64,000 bases of DNA from Cheilinus undulatus (GCF_018320785.1 NC_054879.1:26584546-26648545); one strand, 5' to 3'. Shown: positions 1,355 through 55,466, counted from the stretch's first letter. Numbers and translations: made by a program. Notes: generated by a model not told the origin, from the letters alone.

Positions 1355-2950
1355 GAATTCCTCACTAACAACCTCATGGATTGGACTTGGATTGGTCTGA
1401 GTGACAAAGAGAATGAAAGCACCTGGAAATGGACAGATGGCACCCTGCTGACTCAGGGGTAAGGCACACACTGATTTCATATTGTTGGCTGACCGCTGAG
1501 GTCAGCTGTGCAGATGCCTCTCTCTGTGTCTGAGTAAGTAACTGACTGACTAAGTGATGCTACTTTGAGAGCCCCAACATAACACAGTTGGGTTTGCTTG
1601 TACTGAATGTTGGCGGTAATGGCTGCCTCCACTGTGTTAACTAGAGCCATATATACAGAGTTGCGCTATGGGTGGGGTTTAGTTGGACTGAAAGCCCTCT
1701 AATGGCTTCCTACCTTAATACCTTAGATTTAGCTTTAGCCCCATTTTTACCAGAACTGGGACACATTTCTGTATGACAAAGAATAAAACAACCCTGTAAG
1801 ATTTTCATGTTGGGAAAGATGTTTTCACTCCTGTGCCGCCCCGCTTTGGCATGACTATGTGATAGTTATGGGGAAAGGGTCAGTTGTTGTATACAGCTAA
1901 TGAGTTGTTGTGTCCCAGCTAATAATTGCACTAGCAGGCCTGTCATTAGCTGGGACTGAGCCGCAGCTGGCTGTTGTCTGAACCAGACAACGTGTCTAAA
2001 TCCAAACAAGTGCAGAGAGCAACACTGAAAGCTTTCTGTGACTGAAAAAAATATTCTCTCAGTACTAGTCTGTTTCGGCATGGCTTTTCAATCATGGCAG
2101 TGGGCTTGTCCTGCATTGTCCATCGTTAGCTGTTAGTTTGGATGTCACAGTAGGACCGCTGTTCTTGTTCAAACCAGAGAAGAGAGCCACACCGACAGCT
2201 TGTCTTGTGCAAAGGAGAGGTTTTTGCCCATTCCTTTAGTGATGACTCCCCTTCGTGCACTAACAACACAGAATACAGAGAGCGTATTTTCCCCTCCATT
2301 TTCTAACTGCTGCTGAGTCGCTCTGTGTGTATGTCAGTGTTTAACCAATCAGATGCGGTAGAAGAAAAGCAGAAGGGGAGGAGGGATGACGCTGCTCAGG
2401 GCTTCATATACACAGAGGGAGATAGACAGAGAGAGAGGACAACATGTAGCTTTTTACATTTCAGTAACCTCTACAACTACTAACAATCATGACAAAATCA
2501 CTCTGCCAGAACACATTTCAGTCAGGCATTTCAACAGACATCACAGACAGTTGCAGTCAGCCATATACTAAGTTTTAACCTAGTCTTGTTGTTTAAAGTC
2601 TTAGCTTGAACACAGGCACTTACACAGCTCTTGGACTATATATGTGACCAGTAGATTTTCTTTAATCAAGGGATGTAACTCGGTCCCAAATCAAACCAAA
2701 TAGTTAAATTCAGTCAAAGGAACCTTTTTTTTTTCTTTATACACAACGTTACTCTTTTATTGTGAAATCCTGCTAAAGTCACCTTTTAATCTCTTACAGA
2801 TACTGGTTGAGAGGGCAGCCTGATAATGGAGGAGGACATGCAGTATATGGTGAAGAAGACTGTGCTCACTTCAGAAACAATGGTAAAAAAGAGGCGAATT
2901 GGAATGATGTGAAATGTGATTCAACTATGCTGTGGATTTGTGAAAAATAG
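1355..2950 (+). CDS. C-type lectin receptor paralogue, copy 1 (3' part only: CTLD exons 2 and 3; the 5' exons lie upstream of the window)
   Basis: Exon 1355-1458 (acag|GAATTC ... CAGGG|gtaagg; EFLTNNLMDWTWIGLSDKENESTWKWTDGTLLTQG). Exon 2800-2950 (YWLRGQPDNGGGHAVYGEEDCAHFRNNGKKEANWNDVKCDSTMLWICEK, TAG 2948-2950). The QPD, WND and WICEK motifs mark a long-form CTLD. AATAAA at 2973-2978 and 3073-3078. Confidence 0.7.
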
Positions 2951-3072
2951 TTGAGAATTTATGGAGTGTTGAAATAAAACATAACTGATGTTATTTGCAT
3001 CATGAGTTGCTCAAAAAAATGATTTATTCTGGTATTAAGATTATCTGTTGTTCTGTAAAAAATAATAATAAT

Positions 3073-5534: not shown

Positions 5535-8500
5535 ATGGAAGAAATGGATGAAATCTACGCCAACATTGATTATGAGAAACCTGACAATGAAAAGACACAG
5601 ACCATCCAGACAAGTAAGAGTCCTCACTATGTCTGAGCTTTGAAGTATATGTATCATCATGCAGCATTGTCTTATATGGTTCTGGCTGTGTTCAGGTCCT
5701 GGAAGCTCATATCAGAGATTTTACAGACCTGTTGTTCTTCTTCTTGGACTGCTAAATTTTCTCCTGCTGGCTGGGATTGTTGGCCTCTGTGTCTGTGAGT
5801 CAGTTTTATTTATCCTAAACCATATTTTTACTTTTGCAGGATGTGTCATGATGTGCACTGCACAAGGATATTTGCTGAGGAAAGATGATCCAGTGTAAAA
5901 ATTGAGACACTGTAGTAGTATTTTCATCTGTATCTGTTTACTTAAGACTGATTCAATTCAGTGATATTTGTTTCATTGCAAGATTTTGCAATACAAGACA
6001 CAATAATGAAGCAGAGAAGATGTTTCATGGTTCATTTATTCTGTGAATAAGGTCAAGAAAGCACTGGGTCCATTCCCTCTTAACAGAGCCATTTACTTTC
6101 TTTGCACAAGCTCATGTGATACCAAAATATGTCATATTCTACAAAACCAGAAGCTGGAGAGAGAGGGAACACATCTGATCATTTCAAAAATGTTTTAATC
6201 CATCAGGTTTTATGATTGAAATCCACAGAATGGGCACAAACACTGTGTTTAAAGCAAGGTTTCAAGGTCGGAGAGAGTGAAAGAGAGCATATGATACAGG
6301 AGTGACCACAGTATCTGAGACCAAGACATGCCTGACACCAGAGTGCAACGAGACTAACCAAGACATTTGGGGGTAGAGACCAAGACAAGCTGAGCCTGAG
6401 ACAAGATCAAGACCATTAAAAAACATTTTAAAAATCATCAAAAGGTTGAACAGTTAAAGAACACTCTCTCTTTTATTTTAGTTTGCTTTGAAAATTATTT
6501 GGCAGCAACAAAACAAGATATCTGCAAAAACAATGCAAAAATCTAGAATCTAAGCAAATTTCTTCAAGGCTCTGAAATGCTCTGCTAGTTTTACACCAGA
6601 TTTTTAGTTTTACACCAGTATAATTGTTGTCTTGTCAGTCCACAGAATATGGACTCCATAGTTTTATGAACTCTCCCATTGATGCTATTTTTTCCCAGGC
6701 TCTTTCTTATTGTTGAATCCTGAACTCTGACATTAACTGAGTCAAGTGAGGCCTGCAGGTCTTTAGATGTTGTTCTGGGTTCTTTTGGGAACCCCTGGAT
6801 GAATCGTCAATGTGGTCTTGGAGTCATTTTGGCAGGCTGGCCACTCCTGAGAAGGAGCCGAAAAATAAATAAATCTGTAGTAGTATTAAAAAGCCACTGA
6901 TAAGTCCAGAATTGTTTTAAATATGTGAATTTTAGATGTTTATCTAGATTTGCCAGTTGAATGAGGCCTATAATAAGAGTTTTTGGTGTCTGAAACATTA
7001 CATCATATGCCCAGCCTGAACAAAATTCAGTAATGTTCCATATCATTTCATGGGAAATAAAGATTTAAAGAAGAGCTTGGTTGCATCTAAGAAAGATGAG
7101 ACTCAAGAATTTTATGACGTAAACGTGCACAGTGGGATATCAATATTATGGCCCCTCTACTAAAACCCTCTCAGGGGCACAGATGGTTCAAATCTGGCCC
7201 TTTCCCATATGTCTCTCCCCGCTCTCTTGTCCCTGTCTCCAACTCCATTGTCCTCCTCTAGCAATAAAGAAACAAAAAAAGCCCAAAAATAAATCTTTTA
7301 AAAAAACCTCTCAGCTGGTGCAGAGGAGGAAGGAACTGAAAGCACTTTCTGTGCCAAGTTGTGGAGTGTTGGGTTGGTGGTCTTGACCAATCTTGATGGA
7401 AAATACCAAGTCCAAGACTGTTATCGAGTACTACAACACTTCAACAAACCATTTATTTTATGTAAACTGGAAAGTAAGTAAACTTTTTTTAAGTAATTGT
7501 TTTGTTTTTTAGTTTACCTCATTTTTTATTTGTGATGATGCCTCTGAAAAGAAAGGCTTGGTATCTTTTCCTGCAGTTTCCTGTGATTTCCTGTACTAAA
7601 TGCCTAATCATCCACATTGGACAGAGCGCTTCATATATTTACTTTTTTTGGACAAGATCATGCAACACAACACTGTGTCATAGTGTAGAAACCAGATGGC
7701 GAGAGAGGGACCACATCTGATCAATTCAGACCTAAGCGGTTGTGATTATAAATTTTGGCCTTAATCTGTAATATTCAAATGATTGTAATCCACCGAAAAA
7801 GCCAAACACTGTGTTAAGAGTGAGTTTTCATGGTTGGAGAGAGAGAAAGAGAACTGCAGCCACTGCTCTGAATGGTCAAACAATCCTCTGAGAATTTGTG
7901 CACTGAAATGACTAAACTAAGCATGTACAATATTGTTTTTCAGTTTTTTGCCAATATCCAAACTCATGTTAGCCAATAGGGATAAATATTTTTTCTATTG
8001 TTATATTCTATGTTGAAACAATACAATAAAAGCCTTTCTTCCTCATTTTACCCTAGCCAAGAGAAATTTAGAGATACTCAGACTTAAACTTAACTTTGAA
8101 TGCAGACTGTTTTTAATTGTTAAATAAACATTTCTCTTCAAATATTTCAGACCAAGCCTCAGTTCATCGTTCATCTGCAGAGCTCTCTGCCACCAAAGCC
8201 AATCTAACTGAGCATCTCCAGGCCAAAGATAACCAGCTGTCCTCACTGACTGAACAGAGGGATCTTCTCAATGTCAGCCTCACTGACATGAGTAAAAAGC
8301 TGGAGAGACTTCAGAGTTTGTCCAAGCAGAGTGAGTTTTCTGCAGGATGGTTTCTGCTCACAGCGGTCTGTGATCAAACCACAGCGTCATTTATGTGTCT
8401 TTTTATGATAAAAGTGAACGACCAATTACCATGAAAATGGTGGTCACTGACTCCAAGTGACATTCGTCATCATGTCAGACTCTTTTACTTCCTTTAAAGG

Positions 8501-11500
8501 AGACATAATCAAAAACATACTTTTCCACAAATATTTGGCTATCTGGAGAAACTACAAACCCACAAAATAAGAAAAAGGCAACCCAGTCCTTTGTTTATGA
8601 TCTTCCTATGTCTGAAAATATGAAATCTGAGGGCCTGGTCAGAGGCTGCACTTGTGTGGAACAACAGAGCTGTACTTGTGTCAGTACACCCTATAGAAGA
8701 GAAGGGTAGGGTGAGATAAAGCTCATTTAAAGAGACACGCATCAAATTGACCCTTTTTTTAGAAAGGCTATCTAAGGATGGTTTAAAAAAGTTGAAAAAA
8801 CTCCATTTGTGCTGATACATATTGTTTTTTACCAAAAACAGCACAGGTGATTTATTTAGACCTAAGGAGGCTGTGGAAAATGGGTATGATACACTATATG
8901 GGCTAAAGTAGGCTGCTGAATGTCAACAGGAACTGTAATGACTGTATTCAAATACATGTAGCCTACTTTAAAATGGAGCTGGCCCCCTTTTACAGCCATA
9001 ACAGCACCCTCTCTTCTTGGAAAGCTTTCCACAAGATTCTGGGGTGTTTCTTTGGGAATTTGAGCCCATTCATTGTGTAGAGTTTTCATAAGTTCAGGTA
9101 CTGATGTTGGTTGAGAAGGACCAGCTAACAATCTTCATTCCTGTTCATGTCAAAGGTGCTTGATGGGGTTGATGTCATGGCTTTGTGAAGGCAAGTCAAC
9201 TTCTTCCACACTCTTTATAGTCCTTGATTTGTGCACTGGGGTATACTCATGTTGGAATAGAAAAGAGCCTTCCCCAAACTGTTGCCACAAAGTTGGAAGC
9301 ATTGTCTAAAATGTCTTGGTATGCTGAAGCATTAAGATTGGTCTTCACTGGAGATAAAGGGCCTAGCCAAAACCCTGATAACCCTGATAAACACCCCCAT
9401 ACCATTGTCTTTCCTCCACTACAACATCATAGTTGAAACAATGCAGTCAGGCAGGTGATGTTCTGAGAGTGTCAGTCAAACCCAGATTCACACATCTGAC
9501 TGCCAAACAGAGGGGTTTGGGATTTTTCACTCAACAGAACACATTTCTGCTCCACAGTCCAGTGTCGATGTGCTTCACACCACTCAACCTGACGCTTGGC
9601 ATTGGACTTGGTGATGTGAGACTTGCTTGAAGCTGTTTGGCCATGAGTACCTGTTCCACGATGCTCCCGCCACAATGTTTTGGGCTTACATTAATGCCAG
9701 TGGACATTTCAATCTCTGTTTCTCTTTATTGAATCAGCAGAGTGCTGACAACTTTTAAGCACCATGAAAAATGAACCAATGAAACATGCTGGTTTTCATT
9801 ACAAATTCCTCACTTAAAATAAGGTTGCAGGGGTTTTCCATAGAAAAGACAGCAACATATGTATTTTATTTGTTGCTGTTTTAGGTCTTTTCTGCTCTCT
9901 GATGTTTGTTTATTATGTTTCACAGAGAAAACTTGTCCTGCAAGATGGAGGATGTTCCATTGTTCCTGTTATTTCTTCTCAGCACGAAAAACCTCTTGGG
10001 ACAGCAGCAGGCAAGACTGCAGGAACAGAGACGCAGATCTTGTGGTCATCGACAGTTCTGAGGAACAGGTAATGTGTTCTTTGCAGAGTTTTACCCATCC
10101 TAATTATAGTTTATATATCAATCTATCCACCTTTTTACGTCTGCTTATCATTGGTCGGATCATAGTGACTAATGACTAAGCAGGTCAACCCCACACATCC
10201 CTCTCCGAAGCAATGTTTTCCATATCCTACTCGACCCAGGGGTTCCTGTAAGTGCTTCTTCCATCAACAATATCCACAGTCCAAGCCCTGTCTTTCCTCA
10301 TCTTCCTAAGGCCTACTGAAAGACTTCCCCCATGCCTCTCCGAGATCCTTCTACAACCGGAATTTTGCTTCCACAATCATTGAGGCTGCAGCCCTCTAAA
10401 CCACTCTGTACCTGACACATTCTTTCACAGAAGCCTGGCCTATCCAAGTCTAAAAGCCCTCTTTTTTCAGCCTGATTGCAGATATCCACCAGTGGGTTCT
10501 TAAGTTGTCGACACAACAGTCACTGATAGTCTTCTTGCTACAACTCCTAGCAGTAACTTCCAAAAAGGGGGAGACTCTGAATATAGACCACTCAGACTCA
10601 ATATCCTCAACCAGGATGCACAAGACATTCTTCCAGAGGTGGGCGTTGAAGACCTCACATGCAAAACGCTCTGCCAGGAGTTCCCAGTTCACCCTCACTA
10701 CCCATTTAGTTAGTCTTCTGCTGTTGGGTACACTTATGACAGCTCTATGCTGGAACATAGTTGGTTTGTAAAAGCCAATCCATGACCAGCATAGAAGTCC
10801 AGTAACAAAGCACCACTTGGGATCAAATCAGACATGTCGTTTCTCTCAATCACACTCCACCAAGTGGTCTATGTCATTACTCATATGGGTGTTTAAGTCC
10901 TGCAGTAGAACAATGGAGGCTGTGCCTGTTTTGAGACCTCACCCACCAATTTCAAGGAGGCCACATACATAATTGTAATAACAACAACAGTCAGAGCGTT
11001 CCTCTCCACGACCCGAGGCCACAAAATGGCGATCCATCTATCCATCCATTTTCTCCGGCTTATCTGGGCCAGGTCACAGTGGCATCAGGCTAAGCAAGTC
11101 AGCCTAGACTTCCCTCTCCCCAGCAACATTTTCCAGCTCTTCCTGGGGGATTCAGAGGTATTGCCTGACTAGGTCAGTTATATCATCCCTCCAGTGAACC
11201 CTGGGTCTACCTTGAAGTCTCCTCTCAGTTAGACATGCTGGGATGACCTCCATGGGAAGGCAACCAGGAGCGCTCCTAATGCAACTGTGAGTGTCCCCAC
11301 ACCCATCCGGGGCCTTATCCTGGGAGAATCTGGAATAGAGGAGCATCCAGCCCTTTTCAGGAGTCCCACAGCCTGTTACATGTCTGGAGGAAAGACCAGC
11401 TATATTTAACTGTTAATGATTCAACTCCCACTCCAGCTCTGGCTTTTCCCCACCAGAGGGGAAATAAAGTTAACCTAAGAATTCTTCTATTCTGCTGTTG

Positions 11501-12214
11501 TGCTTGTTTTTATACACCTTTATTCAGTCAATACTGATGCTTACCTAGACTCTACCATTTGACTTTCTATCTGCTTTAAGTATTTATGTATCATTTGATT
11601 TAAAGAGCGGTTTTGTTGTTGTACATCATAGATTTATTCCACCAAATTACCTGAGCTTTACAGTTATTATAAATGCAGGCTCTCTACCTTCAACAGGAAT
11701 TTCTCACTAACACCCTCAAGGGTTGGGCTTGGATTGGTTTGACTGACAGAGACACTGAAGACACCTGGAAATGGACCGATGGCACTCAGCTGACTCTGAA
11801 GTAAGGCATACAGTGATGTGTTTTGTTGTTGTTTTATGTCTTGAATTCAGGCACATACATAATGATTCCTGTGGCACAGTCATGATTTTTTTTTGTTTTA
11901 TCAAGGCCTTTAACTCAACCCTAAATCAAAGGAAATGTTCAATTTTAAGACCAGCTTGCACACAATACAAAACCTGGTTGGTAAACTGCAGTCAAAGGAG
12001 GCAGTTACTCTTTTAAGGAAAGTGATCATTCCTGTGAAATTCACACTTGTTAACCTCTTTCAGATACTGGGGGCGTGGGCAGCCTGATTCTAATGGAAGA
12101 AATCCCCAATGGGGTGAAGAGGACTGTGTTCATATCATGAACGATCGTGCAAAGGAGGCAAATTGGAATGATATGCGATGTGATCGGTCCATGCTGTGGA
12201 TTTGTGAGAAATAG
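5535..12214 (+). CDS. Type II TM C-type lectin receptor (ASGR/MGL/CD209-like, QPD type), copy 2, apparently intact. Six exons, 251 aa.
   Basis: Exons: 5535-5613 (MEEMDEIYANIDYEKPDNEKTQTIQT), 5696-5794 (TM, PGSSYQRFYRPVVLLLGLLNFLLLAGIVGLCV), 8151-8330 (neck, ASVHRSSAELSATKANLTEHLQAKDNQLSSLTEQRDLLNVSLTDMSKKLERLQSLSKQ), 9926-10068 (KTCPARWRMFHCSCYFFS...DADLVVIDSSEEQ), 11697-11800 (EFLTNTLKGWAWIGLTDRDTEDTWKWTDGTQLTL), 12064-12214 (YWGRGQPDSNGRNPQWGEEDCVHIMNDRAKEANWNDMRCDRSMLWICEK, TAG 12212-12214). GT/AG at every junction. Phases are 1,1,1,0,2. Total CDS length is 756 nt, divisible by 3. Confidence 0.75.
6590..7046 (-). mobile_element. Tc1-like DNA transposon fragment (transposase N-terminal region); near-identical copy at 13370-13840
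   Basis: Minus-strand translation ...SGQPAKMTPRPH...NPEQHLKTCRPHL... matches the Tc1 R-P-x-K-M-T-P-R ... K-N-P-R ... K-D-L-Q pattern. A second copy more than 95% identical lies at 13370-13840. Confidence 0.5.
8850..9760 (-). mobile_element. Tc1-like transposase relic
   Basis: Minus-strand ORFs carry NLVESFPRREGAVMAVKGG and AKRQVEWCEAHRHWTVEQ. These are Tc1 family motifs (LVESMPRR..KAKGG; WAK.H..WT.EQW). Confidence 0.6.
10190..11600 (-). mobile_element. Non-LTR retrotransposon 3' fragment in the CTLD1-CTLD2 intron of copy 2
   Basis: The minus strand reads ...PDKPEKMDGWIDG and upstream ...NMLLGRG, a LINE ORF2 tail. Same family as 1-1330. Confidence 0.45.
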
Positions 12215-13369
12215 TTGAGTGTTTATTAAGCATTGAAAATAATCTAAATGTATCCCTTTTTTTCATTTTGATTTTTAAGGCCAACTTTTAAGTTTCTGAC
12301 CTGATTCTTTTGGTCAATGTGTGAATTATTTCAATATTTGTAGTTTTATAGTCCACACCACCAGGAAGCACCTCACATTTTTTATTTACCCACTTCTATA
12401 AAGTCATAATGTAATTGTGTGTCCTCTTCTTGTGTTTTGTCATTAATTTTCCATCAGAGACATTTTTACAAAGTGATATTCATTGTAAATCATGGACTGT
12501 AAACAGAATTTATGCAGCAGAAGCTTTATATTTATGTGCATATATCAAATTGTATGGCAGAGTTGCTTTAGCTTTGTTTTTATTCATAAAAGAGCAAAAT
12601 TAGCAAATATAACATAATTCAAAATTAAATTACTCTCTGTGGTGCATAGCCTTGCATTGAAGAAGTGTCAATATTTTATTTTGATATAATGTTGATTTTC
12701 ATTCAAAAACTGTTCAGAAAAATGTTTAACAGACAAAGAGTGATGACAATAATGTCTCTTCCACACCTGCCTGCTGCACACTGAAGAAGGGAGAGAGGGA
12801 GCTGCAGACTTAGGATCTCTTTGAGTAGTATGCATTTAAATAAATGGATGAAAATCAATAGTTATGCTGTCTAAATCTTTTTTTTTTAATAAGACCCTAA
12901 CCCAAGACCTGGACCTTGCAGACATACCACCTCCCTTTGTAAGGAAAAGATCCCAGTTTTAAAAAATTTCAGTTATGATTTCATTATCAATCAGGTTAAG
13001 CCTTGTGTGAAGAGGTGGAGCAGCCTGTGAATAACTTGTTAAAAACAATAAAACGATGGATTAAAATCAACTGTAAAAATGTGATATAAATGTCAAAGTT
13101 AGGAGTTTTTAAGGTGAAATTATGAGATAAAGTTGGATTCATGAGTTTAAAGGGGAAAATATGACTTAAAAGTCAAATTCATAAGTTCAAAAGGTAAAAA
13201 TATGAGACAAACGTCAAAATCATTTTGCTTGTTTACAAAATCATGGTTCCATCAATTAAGACAAGTGGTCCAGGTCCTGAAACAGCAAAGCAGCACCAAA
13301 ACTCCACACTACCACCTTCATGTTTGACTGTTGGTATGATGTTCTTTGGATGAAATGCTCTGCTAGTTT

Positions 13370-13840: not shown

Positions 13841-13989
13841 CAGTGTCGTTATTCAGAGAGCAACACTATTGTCGACTACTCCCACTTCTGTTACTTGTTT
13901 TTACCAGTCAGCTTCCCTATGCATTTGTAAATCTTACTGATTATAGAACAGCAAGGGATCTTGGGAGCACGATCTAGGCACTAAAATAA

Positions 13990-29529: not shown

Positions 29530-29601
29530 TTTGATGAAAAAAGGACTTTCTTCACTATTCAAACTTAGTCTGCTCTGCAGATGGGACCTTTTAGGAAACA
29601 G

Positions 29602-42600: not shown

Positions 42601-43739
42601 AGCCGTGCTATATGCAAATTAAAGCTATCAAAACTAGCATAGGAAAAAACTAGCATCATGTACGGCCATCTCTCAGCATCATTAGCTCACTTCTAAATTT
42701 TTATTTATGGCAATATGAAACATAAACAACAGAGATGAATCAACATAATAAGCCACAAGTGAAAAATAAACTTGCAAGCGATGCTTTCAGAAATGGGGAA
42801 GGAAAGAAAGGCAGCTGATGAAGCAGGCTGACCGCATGGCAACGTCTCCCAACTACAGCGCCTACTGTGACTCAGCTAAGTCACGTGACCAAATGAACCA
42901 ATCAGATCTGATGGCAAACTACACTACAGAAATTCAATTACCTTAAATAACCAAAAGGGGGAGACAGATACTAAAACATCACACTATTGTTATAACACAT
43001 GACAGATAATCTCAGGATTTTTCTATTGGCCACTGAAACTTTTAATATTATTGTGCTTTTCGTTGTCCTTGCTTTCCTATATTTATGTTGTTAATAATAA
43101 TGTTTAAGTTGAATTCCACAATTCTACATTTTTTTTTGTCATAAGAATTTATAAATCATTTGATTTAAGAGACATATTTATAAATTTTCCATTTCCAGGA
43201 ATGAATGAGTTAAAGACATAAATATAAAAGCAGGATCTCCACCCTTTAACAGGAATTTCTCACTAACAACAGAAAGGATTGGACATGGATTGGCCTGAGT
43301 GACAAAGAGAATGAAGGCATCTGGAAATGGACGGACGGCTCCCTACTGACTCAGGAGTAAGGCACATGGAGATAATATGTCTTAGCTTGAATTAAGGCAC
43401 ATTGGCATTGATTCTCGTAAATTATTTTTGACCTGTTTATTTTCTGTTTTTCAAAGCCTATTTAAAAGAATCAGTCCTTTTTAACTAATTTAACTAACTT
43501 GTTGATTAGATTCACTCACAGCAGCCTTTTTTAAATAAACACTCTTTTAAGAAAAGCTATAAATCCTCTTAAATTCACACTAGTTCACCTCTTACAGATT
43601 CTGGTTCAAAGGGCAGCCTGATAATGGTGAAGGACATCCCAAACTGGGTGAAGAAGACTGTGTTCATTTCAGAAAAACAGACAAAAGGTGGAATGATCGG
43701 GGATGCAACGTGCCCATGCATTGGATTTGTGAGAAATAG
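36667..43739 (+). CDS. Type II TM C-type lectin receptor, copy 4, apparently intact (240 aa, shorter neck)
   Basis: Exons: 36667-36748 (MASLMEMEGIYVNIGSAADVRPPTIQT), 36836-36937 (TM), 39252-39401 (neck, 150 nt), 40431-40573 (KKTCPAGWKMFQGSCYFFSTLKKTWEESRKDCTDKDADLVIIRSFEEQ), 43253-43356 (EFLTNNRKDWTWIGLSDKENEGIWKWTDGSLLTQ), 43598-43739 (EFWFKGQPDNGEGHPKLGEEDCVHFRKTDKRWNDRGCNVPMHWICEK, TAG 43737-43739). Total 723 nt, divisible by 3. AATAAA at 43848-43853. Confidence 0.7.
37440..38210 (-). mobile_element. Tc1-like element relic in the TM-to-neck intron of copy 4, ending in a Tc1 ITR terminus
   Basis: A minus-strand ORF resembles Tc1 transposase. The terminus ...gaggggaggcgaacacttttcacagcattgta matches the canonical Tc1 ITR (tacagtgc...gtatt..cccc). 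Orthologous insertions lie at 48300-48775 and about 31905. Confidence 0.5.
39720..40270 (-). mobile_element. Tc1/mariner transposase fragment (DDE region)
   Basis: Minus-strand ORF ...DTDFLFQQDLAPAHSEAITARDW is the Tc1 FQQDN.P.H motif. Related sequence occurs at 51650-51870. Confidence 0.5.
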
Positions 43740-47754: not shown

Positions 47755-50700
47755 ATGGCATCATTTCATAAAACTGAGGAAATCTACGTCAATGCTGAAG
47801 ATATAAAACCTGTTGATATCAGACCTCCGACTATTCAGACAAGTAAGAGTATTTACTTTGACTCAGCTGTTCAGGAACATGTATTATAATACGGCATTAT
47901 AACTCGTCTTATATGATTCTGTCTGTGTTCAGGTCCTGGAAGCTCACATGGGAGATTTTACAGACCTGTTGTTCTTTTCCTGGGGCTGCTCAGTATCATC
48001 CTGCTGGCTGGGATCATCGGCCTTGGCGTCCTCTGTGAGTCAGTTTTACTTACTTCTGCTCTGATGTTAAATCATATTTAAACCTTTGCAAGTGTCCTAA
48101 GTATGAAGATATTTACTGGATAAATTAAATAAAGTCTGAATTCTGAGATTAACGTGAGAATTCTGAAATTAATCTCAGAATTAGAAAAAAAAAAATTGGA
48201 CCTCAAAATTTTTTTGGTGGCCCTAACCCTCTTTAGAGTAATCCTATAACAAGAAAATTGTTGCACAAGCTTGTGCACCAAGTCTGATGCATTTATTTTT
48301 CTGTTCATTAACCCTTTCCAGACAGATAAAGGCCCGTGTTTTTGTGTCTCATCTGTTTTTAAATTTCTTTAGATGGCACCATGAGGCGTTTCTTTTTGAG
48401 ATCTTTTAGCCTTATTCATGTTGTCAGACAGGTTCTATTTAAGGGATTTCTGGATTCAGCAGTTCTGGCAGTAATCAGGCCTGGGTGTGGCTAATGAAAC
48501 TGAACTCAGGTTTCCAAAACATTTGGTTGATCACAGTTAATTCATGATTTAACAAGGGGGAGCAATTACTTTTCCAGATAGAGGCAGGTACGTTTAGATG
48601 GCTTTTTTCCCTTAGCAAATGAAATCATTTAAAAACTGCTTTTTTTTTTATCAACTTGGGTTAACTTCATCTAATATCAAAATTTGCTTTAAAACCTGAA
48701 ACACATGTGTGTGAAAATATGAAAAAAAAATGGATTCAGGAAGGGGGCAAATACTTTTTCACAGCACTGTAGATCATCAGAGACAGTTGATTTGGCCTTT
48801 TAGAAAATGTAAAGACAGGAACATTCAGCTCTACTTCTTGTGTTTCCACTTCTGTTGCATTTGTTATTTTTTGTCATGTCATCCAGATATGTTAATTGAG
48901 TTATGAAATTGGACATGATTCTCTCAGAAGAAGAAGTCCAGTCACTGTGAATGAGACGGATGATTGAAAGGCGTTGATAAAACCTTGAAGAGATAGCCTG
49001 TTACCGTTTACATGCAGAGTTTCTCTCCTTCATATGAAAGTGAAGAGCTCTTCAATATGAACTAGATACCGGTCCCACACACAAATTTGGCTTGGCCCCT
49101 GAAAAACCCAGAGAGTGGGCCCTCCACAGCTGGGATTTATTTATACCAATGCATGTCTATTAGATCAGTAGCATTAATGCTAGCGTCCTGGCTAACAGTT
49201 TCCTCAGGTTGGAGCTGAAAGGTGTCTCGAGCTATTATTGGGTTCTGATGTTGGTATTATTTTTATCACCACCTTTTTTTTGCCACTTTTCACCTTTTAG
49301 GCACTTTTTTGCCAATTACTGCAACTTGTTTAGGCCATTTTTAACCCATTTAACATTTTTGCCATTTTTGATCCATTTTCACCCCTTTTTGTCCAGTTTA
49401 ACGGTTTGCTGCTTTTCACCAATTTTTTGCCTCTTTTTGCCCATTTTTGCGTGGTTTCACGCCACTTGTTGACTGTTTTTGTCACTTTACTCCTATTTAG
49501 CAACTTTTTTTTGCAAATAACTACAACATCTTTGGCCATTTCCCCCCCGATTTTTGCCACTTTTGCCCATTTTCAGCACTTTTTGCTATTTTGGCACATT
49601 TTTGATCTTTGTAAGGCACTTTTTTGCCAATGATTGCAACTTCTCTTTACTAATTTTAAACCATTTTACCACTTATTGCCCTTTTTTGCCACTTTTAACC
49701 CATCTTTACCACCTTATGTCCATATTTGCAATGTTTTGCCCCTTTATTGCCACTTTATGCCCATTCGTTTCCCCCCCTTTTCCATTTTAGCTGCCTTTTG
49801 GTATTTTTACCCATTTTTGCCTCTTTTTGTCTAATTTAAAACTTTTTGCTGCTTGTTTACCATTTTTTAACCGCTTTTTGTCACTTCCTGGCCCATTTTG
49901 TCACCATTCACCTTTTTTAGCCACTTTTTGCCAATTACTGCAACTTCTTTTGGCCCCTTTTAACCCACTTTTTACCACTTTTTTCCTTTGTGTTAACCCA
50001 TTTAGCCATTGTATTGACATTTTAACCATTTTTTGCCACTTTTAACCAATTTCTTGTCTATTTTTGAAAATTATTTCATGTTTTCCCATCCAGACCACTG
50101 ATCAAGGCTTTGTAGATGATGCTGTGATCCCTGTGGAGACTGTAGATGTCCTTGTGAGGGCTCTTAACTTGCTGAGTGAGGAGGCTGAAATGTTGGGAAT
50201 GCATGTCTCCTTGGTCAAAACAAAGATCCAGGCTTTGGGAATGCTTTGGATGCTATCATCGACTCTGTGTCTGTGAATTGTGAGAGCATGAAAGTTGCAG
50301 TTCGCCTACCTTGGCACTGTAATTCATTGATCCACTGGCTGCAAGGCTGAGATCAGCCACAGACTTGTGCATGGGGTGATGAGTTTGCTGACCAAGATGT
50401 TGTGGCATTCCAGGTATCTGAGCATGAAAGGCAGAGTCTTTCAGTCCCTGGTCCTCCAGGTCTTACCCTACTCTTGTGAGGCCTGGACCTATGGCCAGAG
50501 CACCCTGACTGGACTCCTTTGTGACAACTTTTTTTGGGGGGTTCTGTTGGAAAGACTGTGTATTGAATGCTGACGTCCTTGGGAGAGCAGAGAAGGAAAA
50601 GGGTCAGCTGCTTGATACAGGGACGGCTGCTCCGCTTTTATGTGGTCCTGGCATGCTTTCCCAACCTGATCCAGCTAATTACATACTAGGTGCCTAGGAT

Positions 50701-53700
50701 CTGGTGGGCTGGTCCAGACACAGGGGGACACCTTGCATGGCATGGCAGCTCAGAGGATACCTGGAGAAATGGGGCGTAGACCTGGAAGACAGCCATCAGG
50801 AAGAGCAGTACGGGACCGGGGTTGACACAGCGAAGTGCAGAACTGGCATATGCTCTCATACCTGACCTGATATGATCCTTCCACTCAGTTTATTATGGAT
50901 CAATCTTCTGCAGAGATGGAGAAGCTATCAAATAAAGGCAAAATGCCCAAAAATAATCCTTTGATTATGTTATGATTTCAGACATGAAAGCATAATTTTA
51001 AACCTTTACTTTTTAAAGGGAAAACAGTATTTTAGGTGTTCTTTAGCATTTAAATAGGAAAAAAAGGAGTTAGTAAATGTAGCAAAGTCTCCTGACTGAA
51101 TCATTTAGGGTAGGTCAACTGGATCAGTTTTAGACCCAGGCTCATAAGATCCACTTATAATGCTATATCTGCTCAAAACTAAAATAAGTCTTATTTTGCA
51201 TGCACACAGTTCATTCTGTTCCTTTGTATTATTTCAGACCTAGTCTCAGCTCATCATGCATCTGTGGAGCTCTCCACCATCAAAGCCAATCTGACTGTGC
51301 AACTTCAGGTCAAAGATCAGCAGCTGTCCACACTGACTGAACAGAGGGACCTTCTGAATGTCAGCCTCACCAACATTAGGAAAAACCTAATGAGTTTGTC
51401 CAAACAGAGTAAGTCTTCTGCTGGTCTGCAAACATATAAAAAATTTTATATTGTGAGAAAGTTCATTTTTCCTGTGATTTGATTCAAGAAGTGAAATGTT
51501 GATGATTACAGCTCACTAAAATCAAAATCCAAAATTGAAATATTGGAATATAACAAAGCATACAACGAAACAGGATTTTTTATGCAGAAATGTTGACCTT
51601 CTAGAAAATCATGCTCATTTAAGCACTAAGTAGTTGTTGTTCCTTTTAATAAATTATTGGATCTATATGCGACATGCACAGAGCCATTCAGTCCGTGGCA
51701 CTGCTTGGGTGTTATGAAGCCCAGGTTGCTTTGATAGCAGCCTTCAGCTCATCTGTATTGTTGAGTCTGGTGTCTCTCATCTTCATCTTGATATTTCCTC
51801 AGAGATTCTCTATGGGGTTCAGGTCAGACCAGTCGGCTGGCTAATCATCACAGTAACACCATGTCTGGTTATTCAGTCAGGACCACTTTGTCAAGAAACA
51901 CTCAAGATTTGTGGCTATAAATATTTCTTTATAAGCATTTAAGTTTTTTTTACGTCTGCCTACTCCTTTTTGAACATGTAAATGTGTGACAAATGCAAGA
52001 TATTATCAACAGTCTATCTATTGGGGTTTTTTGGGTTAACTTTTTCCTTTTTTTTTTTTTCTGCAAACGCATGGGTGACTGTATTTGTTATGGTGACAAT
52101 CTCGGATTTTTTTTTTAAATACTTTTTTCAATTATTATTATTATTTTCACTTCTATACATGTTCAAAATAAATAAAGATGAAAAACGAAAAATGAAACGA
52201 AAATTTATTAGCATTCATTGCTGTTATTTATATTTGGTGGTGTTCTGGGATCCCCCCGCCCTTCTACGATGCTTGGAAAGCATTAAGCAGGAGCAGCACA
52301 TGTTCCTGCTCTTCTTATGCTGATAAGCACATTATTATTTCTTGATTAATATGTCAAATTATAGTTTTTTACTTGCATTCCTGAACAGAAAAATTAGTTT
52401 TAGTGGTTGAATGTTATGCTTGATTAATTTCTGGCTTCTCGGAGAAGCCCAGTGAGCCGGCTCAAATTTGGGTATAAAAAGGTAAATTCATTTTGAAATT
52501 CCTCATTCCTGTTCAAAATGGTAAAACATGGAGAGCTCACTGAAAATGAAAGAGTCCGCATTAAAGCACTTCATGATGCTGGATGGTCTCTAAGACAAAT
52601 ATGACAGGTGGTCTAATAAATTTGTTAAGCGCTGTATGTAAGGTACATCAAAAGATGTTACTACACTGAGAGATAAGTTATATCAATATGCCTTTTTTAC
52701 ATCTGAATTTGTTTGGTTGGTGAACAAATATTAAAATAAGATGGCTATGGTAAGTGTTATCAGCAGCCACGAGTAGCTAACTCTTATCACAGTCAACTTA
52801 AATTTTTAACTTATCACACATTATCAACTCAATGCATGACAAAAATATGTTAAAGAGCTGATTGAAAGTTTATTTTAAATAGAAATATTTACAAAAGGCA
52901 TCTGTCCTTTCTTTTCTTATTCACAAATTGTCATAGTACGGTACTTAGAAGTATATTTAAAAGTAAAAAAAAAACAATGCTGTGTACACTAAACATTGAA
53001 AATGGTAGTGGTTGGAATAAGAACACTTGTAAGTTGTCTTGTGAAAATTTTCTGAGAATAACTGTGTATTCTGTGCCATAAAATCGATCTGATCTGTTGC
53101 TACTATGAGTTGGATTTTTAACTGTTGCCCTGACAAGAAGTAACTTTTAATGGCACTTTCTGAAGGGATATTTTGACATCAGTAATCTCAAGACTTTGTC
53201 GAATATGTACAGAATTAAACAACAGAAAAATACATTTGAAATATTTGTCTTTTCTTTGCAGAGAGTCATAAGGTGGTGGCACCCTAGTGCCCCCTATTGA
53301 CCAGCCGTCCCTAATCATCAGTCAGAAGCTTAACATGAGTAGTGCAACAGGTCGTTGAATACTGCAGCAGTAAACTTAGCAAAACAGACTCTGTCTGAGC
53401 GCCACAGAGTCCATTGTTGGAACCAGAAACCAAGGTTATAGACCCAGTTACATGTACCCTGTTTTCTGACAGCAGGCAGAGCAGAGACTCACACTCGCTC
53501 AGTGTTTTAAATATGGATGTACTTAAAGAAGACGAGACATAGTTTGACTTTACTGAAGCAGCTCTTTATATTTCAGTCTGTTGTAAACAGTGTTTAGGTA
53601 GTTTCAAAATAATCTAAAGGTTTTTTATTATTATTATTGTAATTGTACCATTGAGTGCATAGTGTAGTAAAATAAAGATCTGGACTATTAAAATAAAAGG

Positions 53701-55466
53701 TTTGATGTGAAGACCATTAAAATGTACAGTTTGAGTCAAAGTTAGACAAGACAAACTGTGCAAGCACTATTCAGTCCAAGAGTAGTTAGTTTAAAGGAGA
53801 CATATTATACCCTTTTAAGACAAGCTTAAATTGGTCTAAGAGGTCCCCAAAACATGTCTGTGAAGTTTGTTGCTGAAAGAAACACCCCATTATAGGATTT
53901 TTGTACATTTAAACCCCCCTCTATTACAGCCCTTCTCAGAACGAGCCGTTTCTGTGTCTGTGGCTTTAAATGGTAATTAGCTCCGCCCCTGACCACACCC
54001 CTTTCAGGATATGGATGCAGTACTCCTGGGACTACAGATACTTTTATCCAAAGGTTAAAACTTGACCATCAACCTCCCAGACTGTAGTCAGCAGGATAAC
54101 CCATTGAGCTATCCAGTATCTCAACTGGTAGTTGAGAGGACCACTAGAGGAGGGCAGAACTTTCCTCCAATGGGGGGAGGGCCAACCAAACCTGGAGGCG
54201 GGTGCTTACACTCCTGGTGACCTCACCAGGAGTAAAATCTGAGAACAGCTTGTTTGAGCACACATTTTCTGAAAGGTGGAGAAAGAGAGGGGGAGAGGGA
54301 ATGGATTTTTCTGGTATTTGAGGGGATTGTGGACAGACCAGGGGCACATATTTGTGTTAGAAAAGCCTGAAAAAGTGATTTTTGCATATGTCTCCCATGT
54401 ATTTTTTTTCCTAAATTTAAAAAAGTGTAAAATCTTGTATCGTCTCTTCTCGTCTCGTGAGATAAGAATCTTGTCACACCCCTAAGTTTTACACACATTT
54501 TCAAATTCAAATGTACGTCGCTTTGGAGAAAAGCGTCTGCTAAATGACATTGTAATAATTTGTAATTGTAATTTTCCTCATTTGCCATTGTTTCTGTGTC
54601 CAATCTGCTCTCTTATGCTGTTTTTTCATCATATTTTACAGTGAAAACTTGTCCTGCAGGATGGAAGATGTTCCAGTGTTCCTGTTATTTCTTCTCAACA
54701 CATAAAAACACTTGGAATGAATGCAGGAAAGACTGCCAAGACAAAGACGCAGATCTTGTCATCATCAACAGTCCTGAGGAAGAGGTAATGTGTACTTTGT
54801 GGAGTCTTTGTGGAGCAAATCTGTTCAGGCCTAGATCTCCCAAGCAATACTTTCCAGCTCCTCCTGGGAGATTTCACATCGCTTGTCTGCTATTAGAAAT
54901 TATTGATAATTTTATTTAAGAGAAGTATTCTTAGAGTACATTATGTATAATAGAGTTAAAACACAAATATAAATGAAGGATCTCCACCTTCAACAGGAAT
55001 TCCTCACTAACAACATTAAGGGAAGTACTTGGATTGGTCTCAGTGACCAAGAGAAGGAAGGCACCTGGAAATGGACGGATGGCACCCAGCTGACTATGGC
55101 GTAAGGCACACACTGATATAAACATTTATATTTTCCTTTTTTAAAGCCTGCTAAAATAAATCAGTCCCAAATGAAAGCAAATTTTCAATTTAAAATACAG
55201 TGTGCATGGAAAGAAAAATCTTGTCCCCATTTTTATTTTGTATTTCGTTATTTCTAAACCTCTCTCTTTGAGCAGAAGTCATACATCCTGTCAAGTCACA
55301 CTTGTTAACCTCTTGCAGGTACTGGTGGAGAGGGCAGCCTGATAATGGTGGAGGAAATCCCCAATATGGTGAAGAAGACTGTTGTCATTTTGCTACATAC
55401 AAAAAAGAGGCAAAATGGAATGATCTGAGATGTGATACGCCTCTGCTGTGGGTTTGTGAAAAATAA
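47755..55466 (+). CDS. Type II TM C-type lectin receptor, copy 5, apparently intact (251 aa)
   Basis: Exons: 47755-47842 (MASFHKTEEIYVNAEDIKPVDIRPPTIQT), 47933-48034 (TM), 51238-51408 (neck, 171 nt), 54642-54784 (MKTCPAGWKMFQCSCYFFSTHKNTWNECRKDCQDKDADLVIINSPEEE), 54997-55100 (EFLTNNIKGSTWIGLSDQEKEGTWKWTDGTQLTMA), 55319-55466 (YWWRGQPDNGGGNPQYGEEDCCHFATYKKEAKWNDLRCDTPLLWVCEK, TAA 55464-55466). Total 756 nt, divisible by 3. Confidence 0.65.
48300..48775 (-). mobile_element. Tc1-like element end (ITR), orthologous to the copy 4 intron insertion
   Basis: ...ggaagggggcaaatactttttcacagcactgta is a Tc1 ITR terminus. The flanks are homologous to 37840-38210. Confidence 0.45.
49250..50060 (+). repeat. 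Degenerate tandem array (unit about 20-40 bp, TTTTGCCACTTTTAACCCAT-like), T-rich on the + strand
   Basis: It has hundreds of bp of ttttgcca / ttttaaccca / ttttcacc periodicity. The ORFs listed here come from low-complexity sequence. Confidence 0.8.
50064..50600 (+). mobile_element. LINE RT fragment
   Basis: The ORF GFVDDAVIPVETVDVLVRALNLLSEEAEMLGMHVSLVKTKIQALG matches RT motifs C to E, followed by the thumb region. Confidence 0.5.
52440..52620 (+). mobile_element. Tc1/mariner transposase N-terminal (HTH) fragment
   Basis: Reads MVKHGELTENERVRIKALHDAGWSLRQI. Confidence 0.35.

What the first reader, a model, noticed from the sequence alone, without database searches (positions are those of the whole stretch)
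1355..55466. Head-to-tail tandem array of at least six QPD-type type II C-type lectin receptor paralogues
Four intact and three partial gene units on the same strand share the same six-exon architecture and splice phases. This makes a roughly 10 kb repeat unit that is expanding by unequal crossing-over. All copies keep QPD...WND (galactose/GalNAc-type calcium site 2) and the six CTLD cysteines. The long loop between QPD and WND differs in every copy (NGGGHAVYGEEDCAHFRNNGKKEA, SNGRNPQWGEEDCVHIMNDRAKEA, NGGGDPQWGEEDCVHLENHRGKEA, NGEGHPKLGEEDCVHFRKTDKR, NGGGNPQYGEEDCCHFATYKKEA). Neck length also varies (180, 180, 150 and 171 nt). This pattern suggests ligand-specificity diversification of an innate immune receptor family.
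Basis: partly seen in the sequence, partly recalled or inferred. Interest (0 to 1): 0.6.

Follow-up and report, generated by a model that had tools for sequence, protein, structure and literature searches.

The report
Tandem C-type lectin receptor genes, wrasse
This is a real head-to-tail cluster of five intact and two broken genes for membrane-anchored sugar-binding immune receptors in the humphead wrasse, but the genes are already annotated, such clusters are well known in fish, and there is no evidence that the variable loop is under positive selection.

Summary
On the + strand there are four complete six-exon genes (251, 248, 240 and 251 aa, all GT-AG, no internal stops). A fifth gene (U0) runs off the window start. 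Two units are true fragments: U2 (exons 3-4, in-frame stop) and U4 (exons 1-3, no lectin exons).

The four models are 100% identical to NCBI proteins of Cheilinus undulatus named "CD209 antigen-like protein A/C", and U0's exons match the C-terminus of a fifth. Each encodes a type II membrane protein: a tail with a conserved E-I-Y-x-N-V/I motif, one TM helix, a coiled-coil neck, and a long-form C-type lectin domain with an intact calcium site 2 (QPD, E, WND).

- Copies are old (dS about 0.3-0.5; introns mostly unalignable), so this is not an actively expanding 10-kb repeat.
- Only the sub-loop before WND and three residues before QPD are hypervariable.
- NGGGxPxWGEEDC is a conserved family signature.
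- The galactose-stacking Trp of ASGR/MGL (QPDxW) is absent, so Gal/GalNAc specificity is unproven.

Tandem expansion of DC-SIGN-like lectins in teleosts has been described since 2004. Ordinary; low interest.

The parts
1355..1458 (+). U0 exon 5 (CTLD exon 2) of a gene whose exons 1-4 lie upstream of the window
   Evidence: Acceptor and donor contexts match the other units. The translation matches the C-terminal part of annotated protein P0022. Upstream DNA at 663-1342 is homologous to U1 intron 4.
2800..2950 (+). U0 exon 6 (CTLD exon 3 with QPD...WND and the stop codon)
   Evidence: The loop NGGGHAVYGEEDCAHFRNNGKKEA is identical to the P0022 C-terminus.
5535..12214 (+). U1, intact six-exon gene, 251 aa. 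Exons 5535-5613, 5696-5794, 8151-8330, 9926-10068, 11697-11800, 12064-12214.
   Evidence: All junctions GT-AG and no internal stop. Identical to NCBI protein P0003, 'CD209 antigen-like protein C'. Pfam Lectin_C E = 8.6e-23.
14865..15637 (+). U2, gene fragment or pseudogene: exon 3 copy (14865-15044, in-frame TAG) and exon 4 copy (15495-15637). No exons 1, 2, 5 or 6.
   Evidence: It is 92-94% identical to exon 3 of U1/U3 and 87% to exon 4 of U1. A second copy of the intron-3 start lies at 13790-13937.
16700..27925 (+). U3, intact six-exon gene, 248 aa. Exons 16700-16766, 16857-16958, 20651-20830, 26004-26146, 26681-26784, 27775-27925. Its 5.2-kb intron 3 carries a retroelement remnant.
   Evidence: Identical to NCBI protein P0002. 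RVT_1 hit at 22315-22806. AlphaFold2 model has pLDDT 84.
29602..32707 (+). U4, 5' half-gene. Exon 1 at 29602-29689 (an upstream in-frame ATG lies at 29581). A fused duplicate of exon 1 at 29780-29881, in phase, with AG/GT sites. Exon 2 (TM) at 29969-30067 and exon 3 (neck) at 32540-32707. No CTLD exons follow.
   Evidence: The ORF is open through exons 1-3, and its phase is compatible with U5 exon 4. Homology to U5/U6 ends just after exon 3.
36667..43739 (+). U5, intact six-exon gene, 240 aa. Exons 36667-36748, 36836-36937, 39252-39401, 40431-40573, 43253-43356, 43598-43739. It has the shortest neck (150 nt) and the shortest loop B.
   Evidence: Identical to NCBI protein P0004.
47755..55466 (+). 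U6, intact six-exon gene, 251 aa. Exons 47755-47842, 47933-48034, 51238-51408, 54642-54784, 54997-55100, 55319-55466.
   Evidence: 100% identity and 100% coverage to NCBI 'CD209 antigen-like protein A [Cheilinus undulatus]', P0001.
6573..7000 (+). 428-bp segment in U1 intron 2 that is 99% identical to 13351-13778 in the U2 region. A recent local duplication or conversion tract.
13351..13778 (+). Second copy of the 428-bp segment. It abuts a stray copy of the intron-3 start (13790-13937).

Best explanation
The region is a head-to-tail cluster of group II (DC-SIGN/CLEC4/ASGR-like) C-type lectin receptor genes on a chromosome of the humphead wrasse, Cheilinus undulatus. It holds five intact genes, one of them running off the window, plus two decayed partial duplicates.

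Each gene uses the standard type II receptor plan: exon 1 for the cytoplasmic tail, exon 2 for the signal-anchor TM helix, exon 3 for the alpha-helical coiled-coil neck, and exons 4-6 for the CTLD.

The likely function is inferred, not shown. The proteins sit on leukocyte or endothelial membranes as neck-mediated oligomers. They bind glycans through the calcium ion at site 2, where Q-P-D, E and N-D are all retained. They then either internalise cargo or signal through the strongly conserved N-terminal E-E/G-I-Y-x-N-V/I tyrosine motif, which resembles a hemITAM or YxxPhi motif.

The paralogues arose by old tandem duplications, probably within the Cheilinus lineage. Since then they have diverged under moderate purifying selection (omega about 0.5). 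Amino-acid change is fastest in two patches flanking the primary sugar site. Occasional unequal exchange or gene conversion produced the fragments and some locally homogenised exons.
For: Shown:
- Exon models with GT-AG junctions and conserved phases.
- Four models are identical to NCBI-annotated C. undulatus proteins, and the two U0 exons match the C-terminus of a fifth.
- Pfam Lectin_C in each model.
- One strong hydrophobic segment (KD 2.7-2.9) with K/R on its N-terminal flank, NLT/NVS sequons, and 8-12 of 16-19 a/d heptad positions hydrophobic in the neck.
- The AlphaFold2 model has a disordered tail, one continuous helix over residues 32-115, and a CTLD with pLDDT above 90.
- Foldseek matches Mincle, SRCL, MGL, DC-SIGN(R) and ASGR CRDs at TM about 0.9 and 35-40% identity.
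- The site-2 ligands E218, D219, N234, D235 and P206 are invariant or at least 90% conserved in 72 relatives. Tail residues I4, Y5 and N7 are at least 90% conserved inside an otherwise variable tail.
- Divergence: dS 0.3-0.5, omega 0.42-0.78 by region, exon identities of 75-88% with a 92-94% cluster for exon 3 of U1/U2/U3.
- The five copies group together in an NJ tree.
- Tandem expansion of this subgroup in teleosts is documented (PMC514892).
Against: - No expression, glycan-binding or signalling data were available here.
- NCBI models are predictions, so identity to them does not by itself prove the exon joins.
- Monophyly of the five copies has only 47% bootstrap support, and gene conversion could mimic it.
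- The canonical galactose-stacking Trp is missing, so the sugar preference is open.
- U6 has YVNA, which lacks a bulky hydrophobic residue at Y+3, so not all copies need signal alike.
Confidence: 0.88

Rival explanations
1. The QPD-to-WND loop is being driven apart by diversifying (positive) selection for new ligand specificities, as in an arms-race immune receptor family.
For: - Amino-acid divergence is concentrated next to the sugar site. Loop B plus the three residues before QPD have pN 0.386 against 0.156 elsewhere in exons 5-6 (permutation P = 0.0005).
- Family-wide entropy is 2.85 bits in loop B and 3.1-3.9 bits at positions 202-204, against a CTLD mean of 1.26.
- Loop B also varies in length, from 7 to 15 residues after EDC.
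Against: - Omega for the whole loop is 0.54 against 0.47 for the scaffold, and N:S is 29:11 against 48:20, Fisher p = 1.0.
- Omega for the hypervariable patches is 0.68, below 1 and not unusual among random column sets (P = 0.24).
- The cytoplasmic tail is at least as fast (omega 0.78).
- The pattern fits relaxed constraint on a surface loop equally well.
- Only five sequences and about 13 codons are informative, so power is low.
Confidence: 0.25
2. The array is a young repeat that is actively expanding, generated by recurrent unequal crossing-over between roughly 10-kb units. Copy number would therefore be unstable.
For: - There are two partial units (U2, U4), an internal duplication of U4 exon 1 at 85% identity, and a 428-bp pair at 99% identity.
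- A stray copy of the intron-3 start lies beside the 428-bp segment.
- Exon 3 of U1/U2/U3 is 92-94% identical while their CTLD exons are 75-84% identical.
Against: - Intact genes differ by dS of about 0.3-0.5.
- Introns and intergenic DNA are mostly unalignable, and different transposon remnants occupy different units.
- Unit lengths differ (6.7, 11.2, 7.1 and 7.7 kb for the intact genes).
- No long, highly identical tracts exist that could sustain frequent non-allelic recombination.
Confidence: 0.15
3. The proteins are galactose/GalNAc-specific receptors functionally equivalent to ASGR or MGL (CLEC10A), clearing desialylated glycoproteins or recognising Tn-type antigens.
For: - QPD and WND are kept in all five copies and in 80 of 120 homologues.
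- The QPD-to-EDC loop has the same 10-residue length as in ASGR2.
- The His after EDC-x is kept (EDCxH), and an aromatic residue is conserved at QPD+8 in 68 of 74 cases.
- MGL and ASGR are among the top fold matches.
Against: - Position QPD+2, which aligns with the Trp of ASGR2's QPDNW (the galactose-stacking Trp of ASGR/MGL by my recollection), is Gly here and in 76 of 80 QPD homologues.
- The +8 aromatic also occurs in EPN members (4 of 5), so it is not tied to QPD.
- Close labrid relatives switch to EPN (P0011).
- Mincle, an EPN receptor, is an equally good or better fold match.
- Published fish lectins show that motif-based specificity calls are unreliable. An EPN fish DC-SIGN was inhibited by both mannose and galactose (PMC11084180).
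Confidence: 0.3
4. The repeated units are an assembly artefact (collapsed or falsely duplicated haplotypes) or a set of dead pseudogenes.
For: Two units are clearly non-functional fragments.
Against: - The intact copies differ by 12-25% in exons and have distinct introns and transposon content, so they are not duplicated haplotypes.
- Four complete ORFs and the two visible U0 exons are open with conserved splice sites. Omega of about 0.5 shows purifying selection.
Confidence: 0.02

Closest known systems
Teleost 'DC-SIGN subgroup' of group II CTLD receptors. These appear as fish 'CD209 antigen-like protein A/C/E' or 'CLEC4E-like' annotations, and as the Fugu DC-SIGN-F2 to F5 tandem cluster of Zelensky & Gready 2004 (PMC514892).
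   Same: - Type II topology, a single C-terminal long-form CTLD, and calcium site 2 retained.
- No one-to-one mammalian orthologue, and tandem duplication as the mode of expansion.
- The wrasse proteins are 50-66% identical to dozens of percomorph members and share the NGGGxPxWGEEDC signature and the MEEIYxNV tail.
   Different: Nothing of kind. This is simply the Cheilinus undulatus instance, with its own set of five paralogues and two fragments.
Mammalian Dectin-2/APLEC cluster (CLEC4A-E, CLEC6A; includes Mincle and DCIR)
   Same: - A head-to-tail cluster of small type II lectin receptor genes.
- A six-exon plan of tail, TM, neck and three CTLD exons. The mammalian plan is from my knowledge and was not tested here.
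- The Mincle CRD is the top structural match (TM 0.89-0.90, 37% identity).
   Different: - The mammalian members are EPN-type, while these are QPD.
- Mincle and Dectin-2 signal through FcR-gamma, paired via a TM arginine (my knowledge). The wrasse TM cores have no charged residue.
- DCIR has an ITIM, whereas here Y-2 is E or G, so the ITIM consensus is not met.
ASGR1/ASGR2 and MGL (CLEC10A), the galactose/GalNAc-type group II receptors
   Same: - QPD...WND.
- A 10-residue QPD-to-EDC loop and the EDCxH His.
- A coiled-coil neck and a tyrosine-based tail motif.
   Different: - The stacking Trp at QPD+2 is absent, and an aromatic residue sits at +8 instead.
- The segment before WND is up to 4 residues longer.
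- Identity is 36-38%, no closer than to EPN receptors.
Human CD209 (DC-SIGN), the name used in the annotation
   Same: Type II receptor with a neck and a C-terminal CTLD. CRD fold TM about 0.85 and 35% identity.
   Different: - DC-SIGN is EPN-type with a neck of tandem 23-residue repeats and di-leucine and tri-acidic tail motifs (my knowledge).
- Here the neck is a single 150-180-nt exon, Tandem Repeats Finder reports no array in any neck exon, the motif is QPD, and the tails contain no LL (sequences).
- The name reflects best-hit transfer, not orthology.

Membership tests
C-type lectin-like domain (Pfam PF00059) | Significant match to the Lectin_C profile above the gathering score | tested here: met
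   81.6, 74.2, 84.9 and 80.5 bits against a cutoff of 22.6, covering profile positions 2-107 of 107.
Long-form CTLD | Six cysteines: the C0-C0' N-terminal pair plus C1-C4 and C2-C3 | tested here: met
   All six are invariant in the 72-sequence alignment (C120, C131, C148, C220, C238, C246) and present in every wrasse copy. U1, U3 and U6 carry extra Cys.
Group II CTLD receptors (type II TM + neck + one CTLD) | No signal peptide, one signal-anchor TM helix with the N-terminus inside, a helical neck and a C-terminal CTLD | tested here: met
   One KD19 window scores 2.7-2.9, with 2-3 K/R on its N flank and 0-1 on its C flank. Sequons lie only C-terminal to the TM, and the neck shows a heptad pattern. 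AlphaFold2 predicts a helix over residues 32-115 followed by the CTLD. Topology itself was not tested experimentally.
Group II CTLD receptors (type II TM + neck + one CTLD) | CTLD encoded by three exons, with separate exons for tail, TM and neck | tested here: met
   Exon models. Phases are identical in all units.
Calcium-dependent carbohydrate-binding CRD | Five site-2 ligands: the two polar residues of the xPx tripeptide, a Glu before the C2 cysteine, and the Asn-Asp of WND | tested here: met
   QPD, E of EEDC and WND are present in all five copies. P206, E218 and D235 are invariant, and D219 and N234 are at least 90% conserved, in 72 relatives. Actual calcium or sugar binding is not testable here.
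Galactose-type CRD of the ASGR/MGL kind | QPD tripeptide | tested here: met
Galactose-type CRD of the ASGR/MGL kind | Trp two residues after QPD (QPDxW) that stacks on the galactose ring, held in place by the following Gly-rich loop | tested here: not met
   In the alignment to ASGR2 (8urf), QPDNWHGHELGGSEDC aligns with QPDNGGGDPQWGEEDC. Position +2 is Gly in 76 of 80 QPD homologues and never Trp. An aromatic residue at +8 is conserved, but its geometry could not be measured because no model coordinates are exposed.
Galactose-type CRD of the ASGR/MGL kind | Measured preference for Gal/GalNAc | not testable with these tools
   Needs recombinant protein and glycan assays.
CD209 / DC-SIGN orthologue | EPN mannose/fucose-type site and a neck of tandem 23-residue repeats | tested here: not met
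   The site is QPD, not EPN. No tandem repeat is reported within any neck exon. The neck is a single exon of 50-60 codons.
FcR-gamma-coupled CLEC4 receptors (Mincle/Dectin-2 type) | Positively charged residue inside the TM helix and a short tail without a tyrosine motif | tested here: not met
   The TM cores (for example VVLLLGLLNFLLLAGIVGL) have no charged residue, and the tails carry a conserved Tyr motif.
ITIM-bearing lectin receptors (DCIR type) | [SIVL]-x-Y-x-x-[ILV] in the tail | tested here: not met
   Y-2 is E or G in every copy (QEIYANI, DEIYANI, EGIYANV, EGIYVNI, EEIYVNA).
hemITAM-bearing lectin receptors (Dectin-1, CLEC-2, DNGR-1 type) | A single Y-x-x-[LI] near the N-terminus, preceded by acidic residues | tested here: inconclusive
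   The acidic-(I)-Y-x-N-[IV] pattern is present in U0, U1, U3, U5 and both U4 copies, while U6 has YVNA. I4, Y5 and N7 are at least 90% conserved in the family. The Asn at Y+2 is not part of the hemITAM consensus. These CTLDs are group II, not the group V Dectin-1 cluster. Syk recruitment is not testable here.

The most novel reading that the evidence does not exclude
The percomorph family represented here may be a distinct sub-class of sugar-binding CRD. In it, a conserved QPD-N-G-G-G-x-P-x-[W/Y]-G-E-EDC loop would present its aromatic platform from position +8 instead of the ASGR/MGL +2 position. Two hypervariable patches (three residues before QPD, and loop B before WND) would tune extended-site specificity between paralogues. 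The receptor would signal by itself through a conserved EEIYxNV hemITAM-like tail. The orphan 5' half-gene U4, whose duplicated exon 1 could encode two such tyrosine motifs in tandem and which is phase-compatible with U5 exon 4, could supply an alternative signalling module to the neighbouring lectin gene.
Probability: 0.15. Interest if true: 0.4.

Novelty: already known. Interest (0 to 1): 0.15.

Why it matters
It matters little beyond routine annotation. The genes are already in RefSeq for this species, and tandemly expanded DC-SIGN-like lectin receptors are a long-recognised feature of teleost genomes.

The useful outcome is a set of corrections:
- The 'CD209-like' label is nominal.
- The 'QPD = galactose' call is not secured, because the canonical stacking Trp is missing.
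- The long loop is mostly conserved; only a short sub-loop and three pre-QPD residues vary.
- The proposed signature of positive selection is not there with the data in hand.

If someone wanted to study how fish lectin receptor repertoires tune glycan recognition, this compact five-gene set with defined variable patches would be a convenient test panel.

Tried and rejected
1. The look-up of encoding contigs for P0022 and P0001, to see the array beyond the window edges: nothing on record. The full extent of the array is therefore unknown.

2. A search for hidden CTLD exons in U2 and U4, and downstream of U6, with a sensitive tblastn (word size 2): none found.

3. Pairwise NG86 dN/dS, parsimony-style N:S counts and a column-permutation test: no excess omega in the loop. 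Synonymous sites in the loop are few, and one pair is saturated (pS 0.74-0.80). The test has low power, and I do not treat it as proof of absence.

4. Measuring where the +8 Trp sits relative to the calcium site in the AlphaFold2 model: not possible, because coordinates are not exposed.

5. A PDB query with only the sugar-site segment, meant to bring up galactose-type CRDs: only three weak hits, but one (ASGR2) gave the useful residue-by-residue alignment.

6. Literature searches for this species' lectins and for hemITAM in teleost lectins: nothing specific.

7. Pfam on the long intronic and intergenic ORFs: only one RVT_1 hit. I read the others as degenerate transposon remnants, from sequence look alone and not tested.

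8. A prokaryotic or viral reading of the window was dismissed at once. The sequence has spliced genes with GT-AG introns and matches fish proteins.


Full report
**Observation**

A self-BLAST of the window shows five families of exon-sized islands at 75-94% identity. They recur in a fixed order (A, B, C, D, E) and are embedded in DNA that otherwise does not align.

DNA alignments of each family expose conserved acceptor and donor contexts. From these I derived exon coordinates and assembled four complete coding sequences:
- U1 5535-12214 (251 aa)
- U3 16700-27925 (248 aa)
- U5 36667-43739 (240 aa)
- U6 47755-55466 (251 aa)

Each has six exons, GT-AG at all five introns, identical intron phases and no internal stop. 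Neck exons measure 180, 180, 180, 168, 150 and 171 nt across the six copies of that exon. The finding's limits coincide with the first base of U0 exon 5 (1355) and the last base of the U6 stop codon (55466).

**Corrections to the unit count**

A sensitive tblastn with the four proteins finds no further lectin exons anywhere in the window.

U0 (exon 5 at 1355-1458, exon 6 at 2800-2950) is cut off by the window edge. DNA upstream of it aligns to intron 4 of U1. Its translation is the exact C-terminus of an annotated 216-aa protein, P0022. U0 is therefore a fifth intact gene and not a fragment.

The true fragments are U2 and U4. U2 has an exon 3 copy with an in-frame TAG and an exon 4 copy. U4 has exon 1, a fused in-phase duplicate of exon 1, exon 2 and exon 3, all open, with no CTLD exons. 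U4's homology to its neighbours stops just after exon 3.

**Identity**

A protein database search with U6 returns a 100%-identical, full-length NCBI protein, 'CD209 antigen-like protein A [Cheilinus undulatus]', on a 49.1-Mb sequence. U3, U1 and U5 are identical to P0002, P0003 and P0004, named 'CD209 antigen-like protein C'. The window is thus humphead wrasse genomic DNA, and all five genes are already annotated.

More than a hundred percomorph proteins are 43-66% identical. Their names vary between CD209-like A/C/E, CLEC4E-like, CLEC10A-like and ASGR2-like, which shows that the names are best-hit transfers.

**Protein anatomy**

Pfam finds one Lectin_C domain per protein, with E = 1e-20 to 1e-24. 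Each protein has the following features:
- a single strongly hydrophobic segment (Kyte-Doolittle 2.7-2.9 over 19 residues)
- basic residues on the N-terminal side of that segment
- NLT/NVS sequons only on its C-terminal side
- a neck in which 8-12 of 16-19 a/d heptad positions are hydrophobic

An AlphaFold2 model of U3, built on a 72-sequence alignment, has mean pLDDT 84. It shows a disordered tail (residues 1-29), one continuous helix (32-115) and a CTLD with pLDDT above 90.

Foldseek against the PDB gives Mincle, SRCL, MGL/CLEC10A, DC-SIGN(R), ASGR1/2, langerin, CD23 and a Takifugu 'Mincle'. All are at 30-40% identity with target TM about 0.8-0.9, and no single mammalian receptor stands out. 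Sequence search of the PDB agrees.

The calcium site-2 ligands (QPD, the Glu of EEDC, and WND) are present in all five copies and are invariant or nearly so in the family.

In the tail, I4, Y5 and N7 of the consensus MEEIYxNV are at least 90% conserved although the rest of the tail is variable. The motif does not fit the ITIM consensus, because Y-2 is E or G. It resembles the acidic-YxxL/I hemITAM (from my knowledge, DNGR-1 has EEEIYTSL) or a YxxPhi sorting signal. That reading is inference only.

I codon-aligned the five copies and computed Nei-Gojobori estimates by region.

| Region | Pooled omega |
|---|---|
| Cytoplasmic tail | 0.78 |
| TM | 0.42 |
| Neck | 0.54 |
| CTLD scaffold | 0.47 |
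| QPD-to-WND loop | 0.54 |

Minimum substitution counts give N:S of 29:11 in the loop and 48:20 in the rest of exons 5-6 (Fisher p = 1.0). Variable columns number 18 of 24 in the loop against 29 of 59 (p = 0.05).

Family-wide entropy shows that the loop is not uniformly variable:
- NGGGDPQWGE: 1.06 bits, more conserved than the CTLD average of 1.26
- Segment between EDCxH and WND (loop B): 2.85 bits
- Three residues before QPD: 3.1-3.9 bits

On just those hypervariable patches within the array, pN is 0.386 against 0.156 (permutation P = 0.0005). Omega is 0.68, below 1 and unremarkable among random column sets (P = 0.24).

What remains is faster amino-acid change beside the sugar site, and relaxed constraint explains that equally well. 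Power is low, with five sequences, about 13 informative codons and partly saturated synonymous sites.

**Age and dynamics of the array**

Exon identities among intact genes are mostly 75-88%, dS is about 0.3-0.5, and introns barely align. Different retroelement or transposon remnants sit in different units. These are old duplicates, not a currently expanding 10-kb repeat.

There is still evidence of later local exchange:
- Exon 3 and its flanks are 92-94% identical among U1, U2 and U3, while the CTLD exons of the same genes are 75-84% identical.
- A 428-bp intronic segment is duplicated at 99% identity, and a stray copy of the intron-3 start lies next to it.
- Exon 1 is duplicated within U4.

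In an NJ tree with other labrids and percomorphs the five copies form one clade, but with only 47% bootstrap support. A lineage-specific origin is therefore likely but not secure, and gene conversion could contribute to the grouping.

**Sugar specificity**

QPD/WND is the majority state in the family: 80 of 120 homologues, with 16 EPN/WND, and close labrid relatives have EPN.

Aligned to the ASGR2 CRD, the QPD-to-EDC loop has the same length. The Trp at QPD+2, which in ASGR/MGL stacks on galactose (established structural knowledge, not tested here), is Gly in the wrasse proteins. It is also Gly in 76 of 80 QPD homologues.

An aromatic residue is conserved at +8 in 68 of 74 QPD members, but it also occurs in EPN members (4 of 5). 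It may therefore be structural and not galactose-specific. The segment before WND is up to four residues longer than in ASGR2.

Published work on fish lectins shows that motif-based calls can fail. An EPN-type bass DC-SIGN was inhibited by both mannose and galactose (PMC11084180). I therefore treat 'Gal/GalNAc-type' as a hypothesis with roughly 30% support.

**Comparison with what is known**

Zelensky and Gready (2004, PMC514892) reported several relevant points:
- It has no one-to-one mammalian orthologues.
- It expanded by tandem duplication, with four genes in one cluster.
- Related cichlid genes form clusters of ten or more.

The wrasse array is another instance of exactly this. It also parallels the mammalian Dectin-2/APLEC cluster in gene plan and arrangement. 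It differs from those receptors in three ways: QPD instead of EPN, no charged TM residue for FcR-gamma pairing, and a tail tyrosine motif of its own. It is not a DC-SIGN orthologue, since it has no EPN, no repeat neck and no di-leucine motif.

**Verdict**

The feature is real and accurately located, but ordinary and already annotated. The evolutionary and specificity interpretations are only partly supported.

Surroundings: downstream of the array, on the - strand, lies a CALHM-family ORF. The window holds no other lectin exons.

Noticed in passing
window 61511-62029 (- strand); possibly also 60106-60600 (-): A 172-aa ORF downstream of the array is 47-54% identical to fish proteins carrying Pfam PF14798 (calcium homeostasis modulator, CALHM), for example 'si:dkeyp-122a9.2' of Toxotes jaculatrix. 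It is the flanking gene on the opposite strand. Pfam did not hit the ORF itself at E <= 0.01.
   Followed up: partly
window 29581-29881: Within U4 a duplication of about 195 bp fuses the start of exon 2 to a second copy of exon 1. This creates a potential in-phase extra exon (29780-29881, with AG/GT sites). If spliced in, the tail would carry two EGIYATI motifs about 30 residues apart. U4 exons 1-3 are all open and phase-compatible with exon 4 of the next gene, U5.
   Followed up: partly
window 6573-7000 and 13351-13778: These two 428-bp segments are 99% identical, far more similar than anything else in the array. One lies in U1 intron 2 and the other at the 5' edge of the U2 fragment, directly followed by a stray copy of the first 60-150 bp of intron 3 (13790-13937). 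The sequence looks like a Tc1/mariner remnant (by eye, not tested). Shared truncated ends suggest a recent local duplication or conversion instead of two separate insertions.
   Followed up: partly
window 22315-24236 (+), in U3 intron 3: This is a GC-rich block (GC 0.46-0.49 against about 0.38 elsewhere). It has overlapping ORFs of 163-292 aa, and one matches Pfam RVT_1 (E = 1.4e-6, just under the gathering score). It is a degraded non-LTR retroelement and accounts for the unusually long 5.2-kb intron.
   Followed up: partly
window 18326-19072 (-), 39888-40262 (-), 44235-44792 (-), 4145-4804 (-): Further long ORFs in introns and intergenic DNA have no Pfam hit at E <= 0.01. By eye they resemble a GIY-YIG-type (Penelope-like) endonuclease, Tc1/mariner transposase remnants and a LINE reverse-transcriptase tail. 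Different units carry different remnants.
   Followed up: no
P0022 (annotated product of the U0 gene; its 3' exons are at window 1355-2950): The only returned isoform of the U0 gene (216 aa) joins the cytoplasmic exon directly to the neck and lacks the TM exon. If real, this would be a cytosolic or otherwise non-membrane isoform. It may instead be a prediction artefact.
   Followed up: no
window 58001-60000: A strong purine bias on the + strand (GC skew +0.21, AT skew +0.26 over 2 kb) lies between the array and the CALHM-like ORF. A mirror-image pyrimidine-rich stretch at 48001-50000 (AT skew -0.22) in U6 intron 2 contains diverged repeats of about 300 bp (49263-50085).
   Followed up: no
homologues P0117, P0118 (Merluccius polli): Two hake relatives of this lectin family carry immunoglobulin domains (PF07679, PF13927, PF00047) together with the CTLD. 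This is an unusual Ig + type II lectin combination that may be a gene-model fusion.
   Followed up: no
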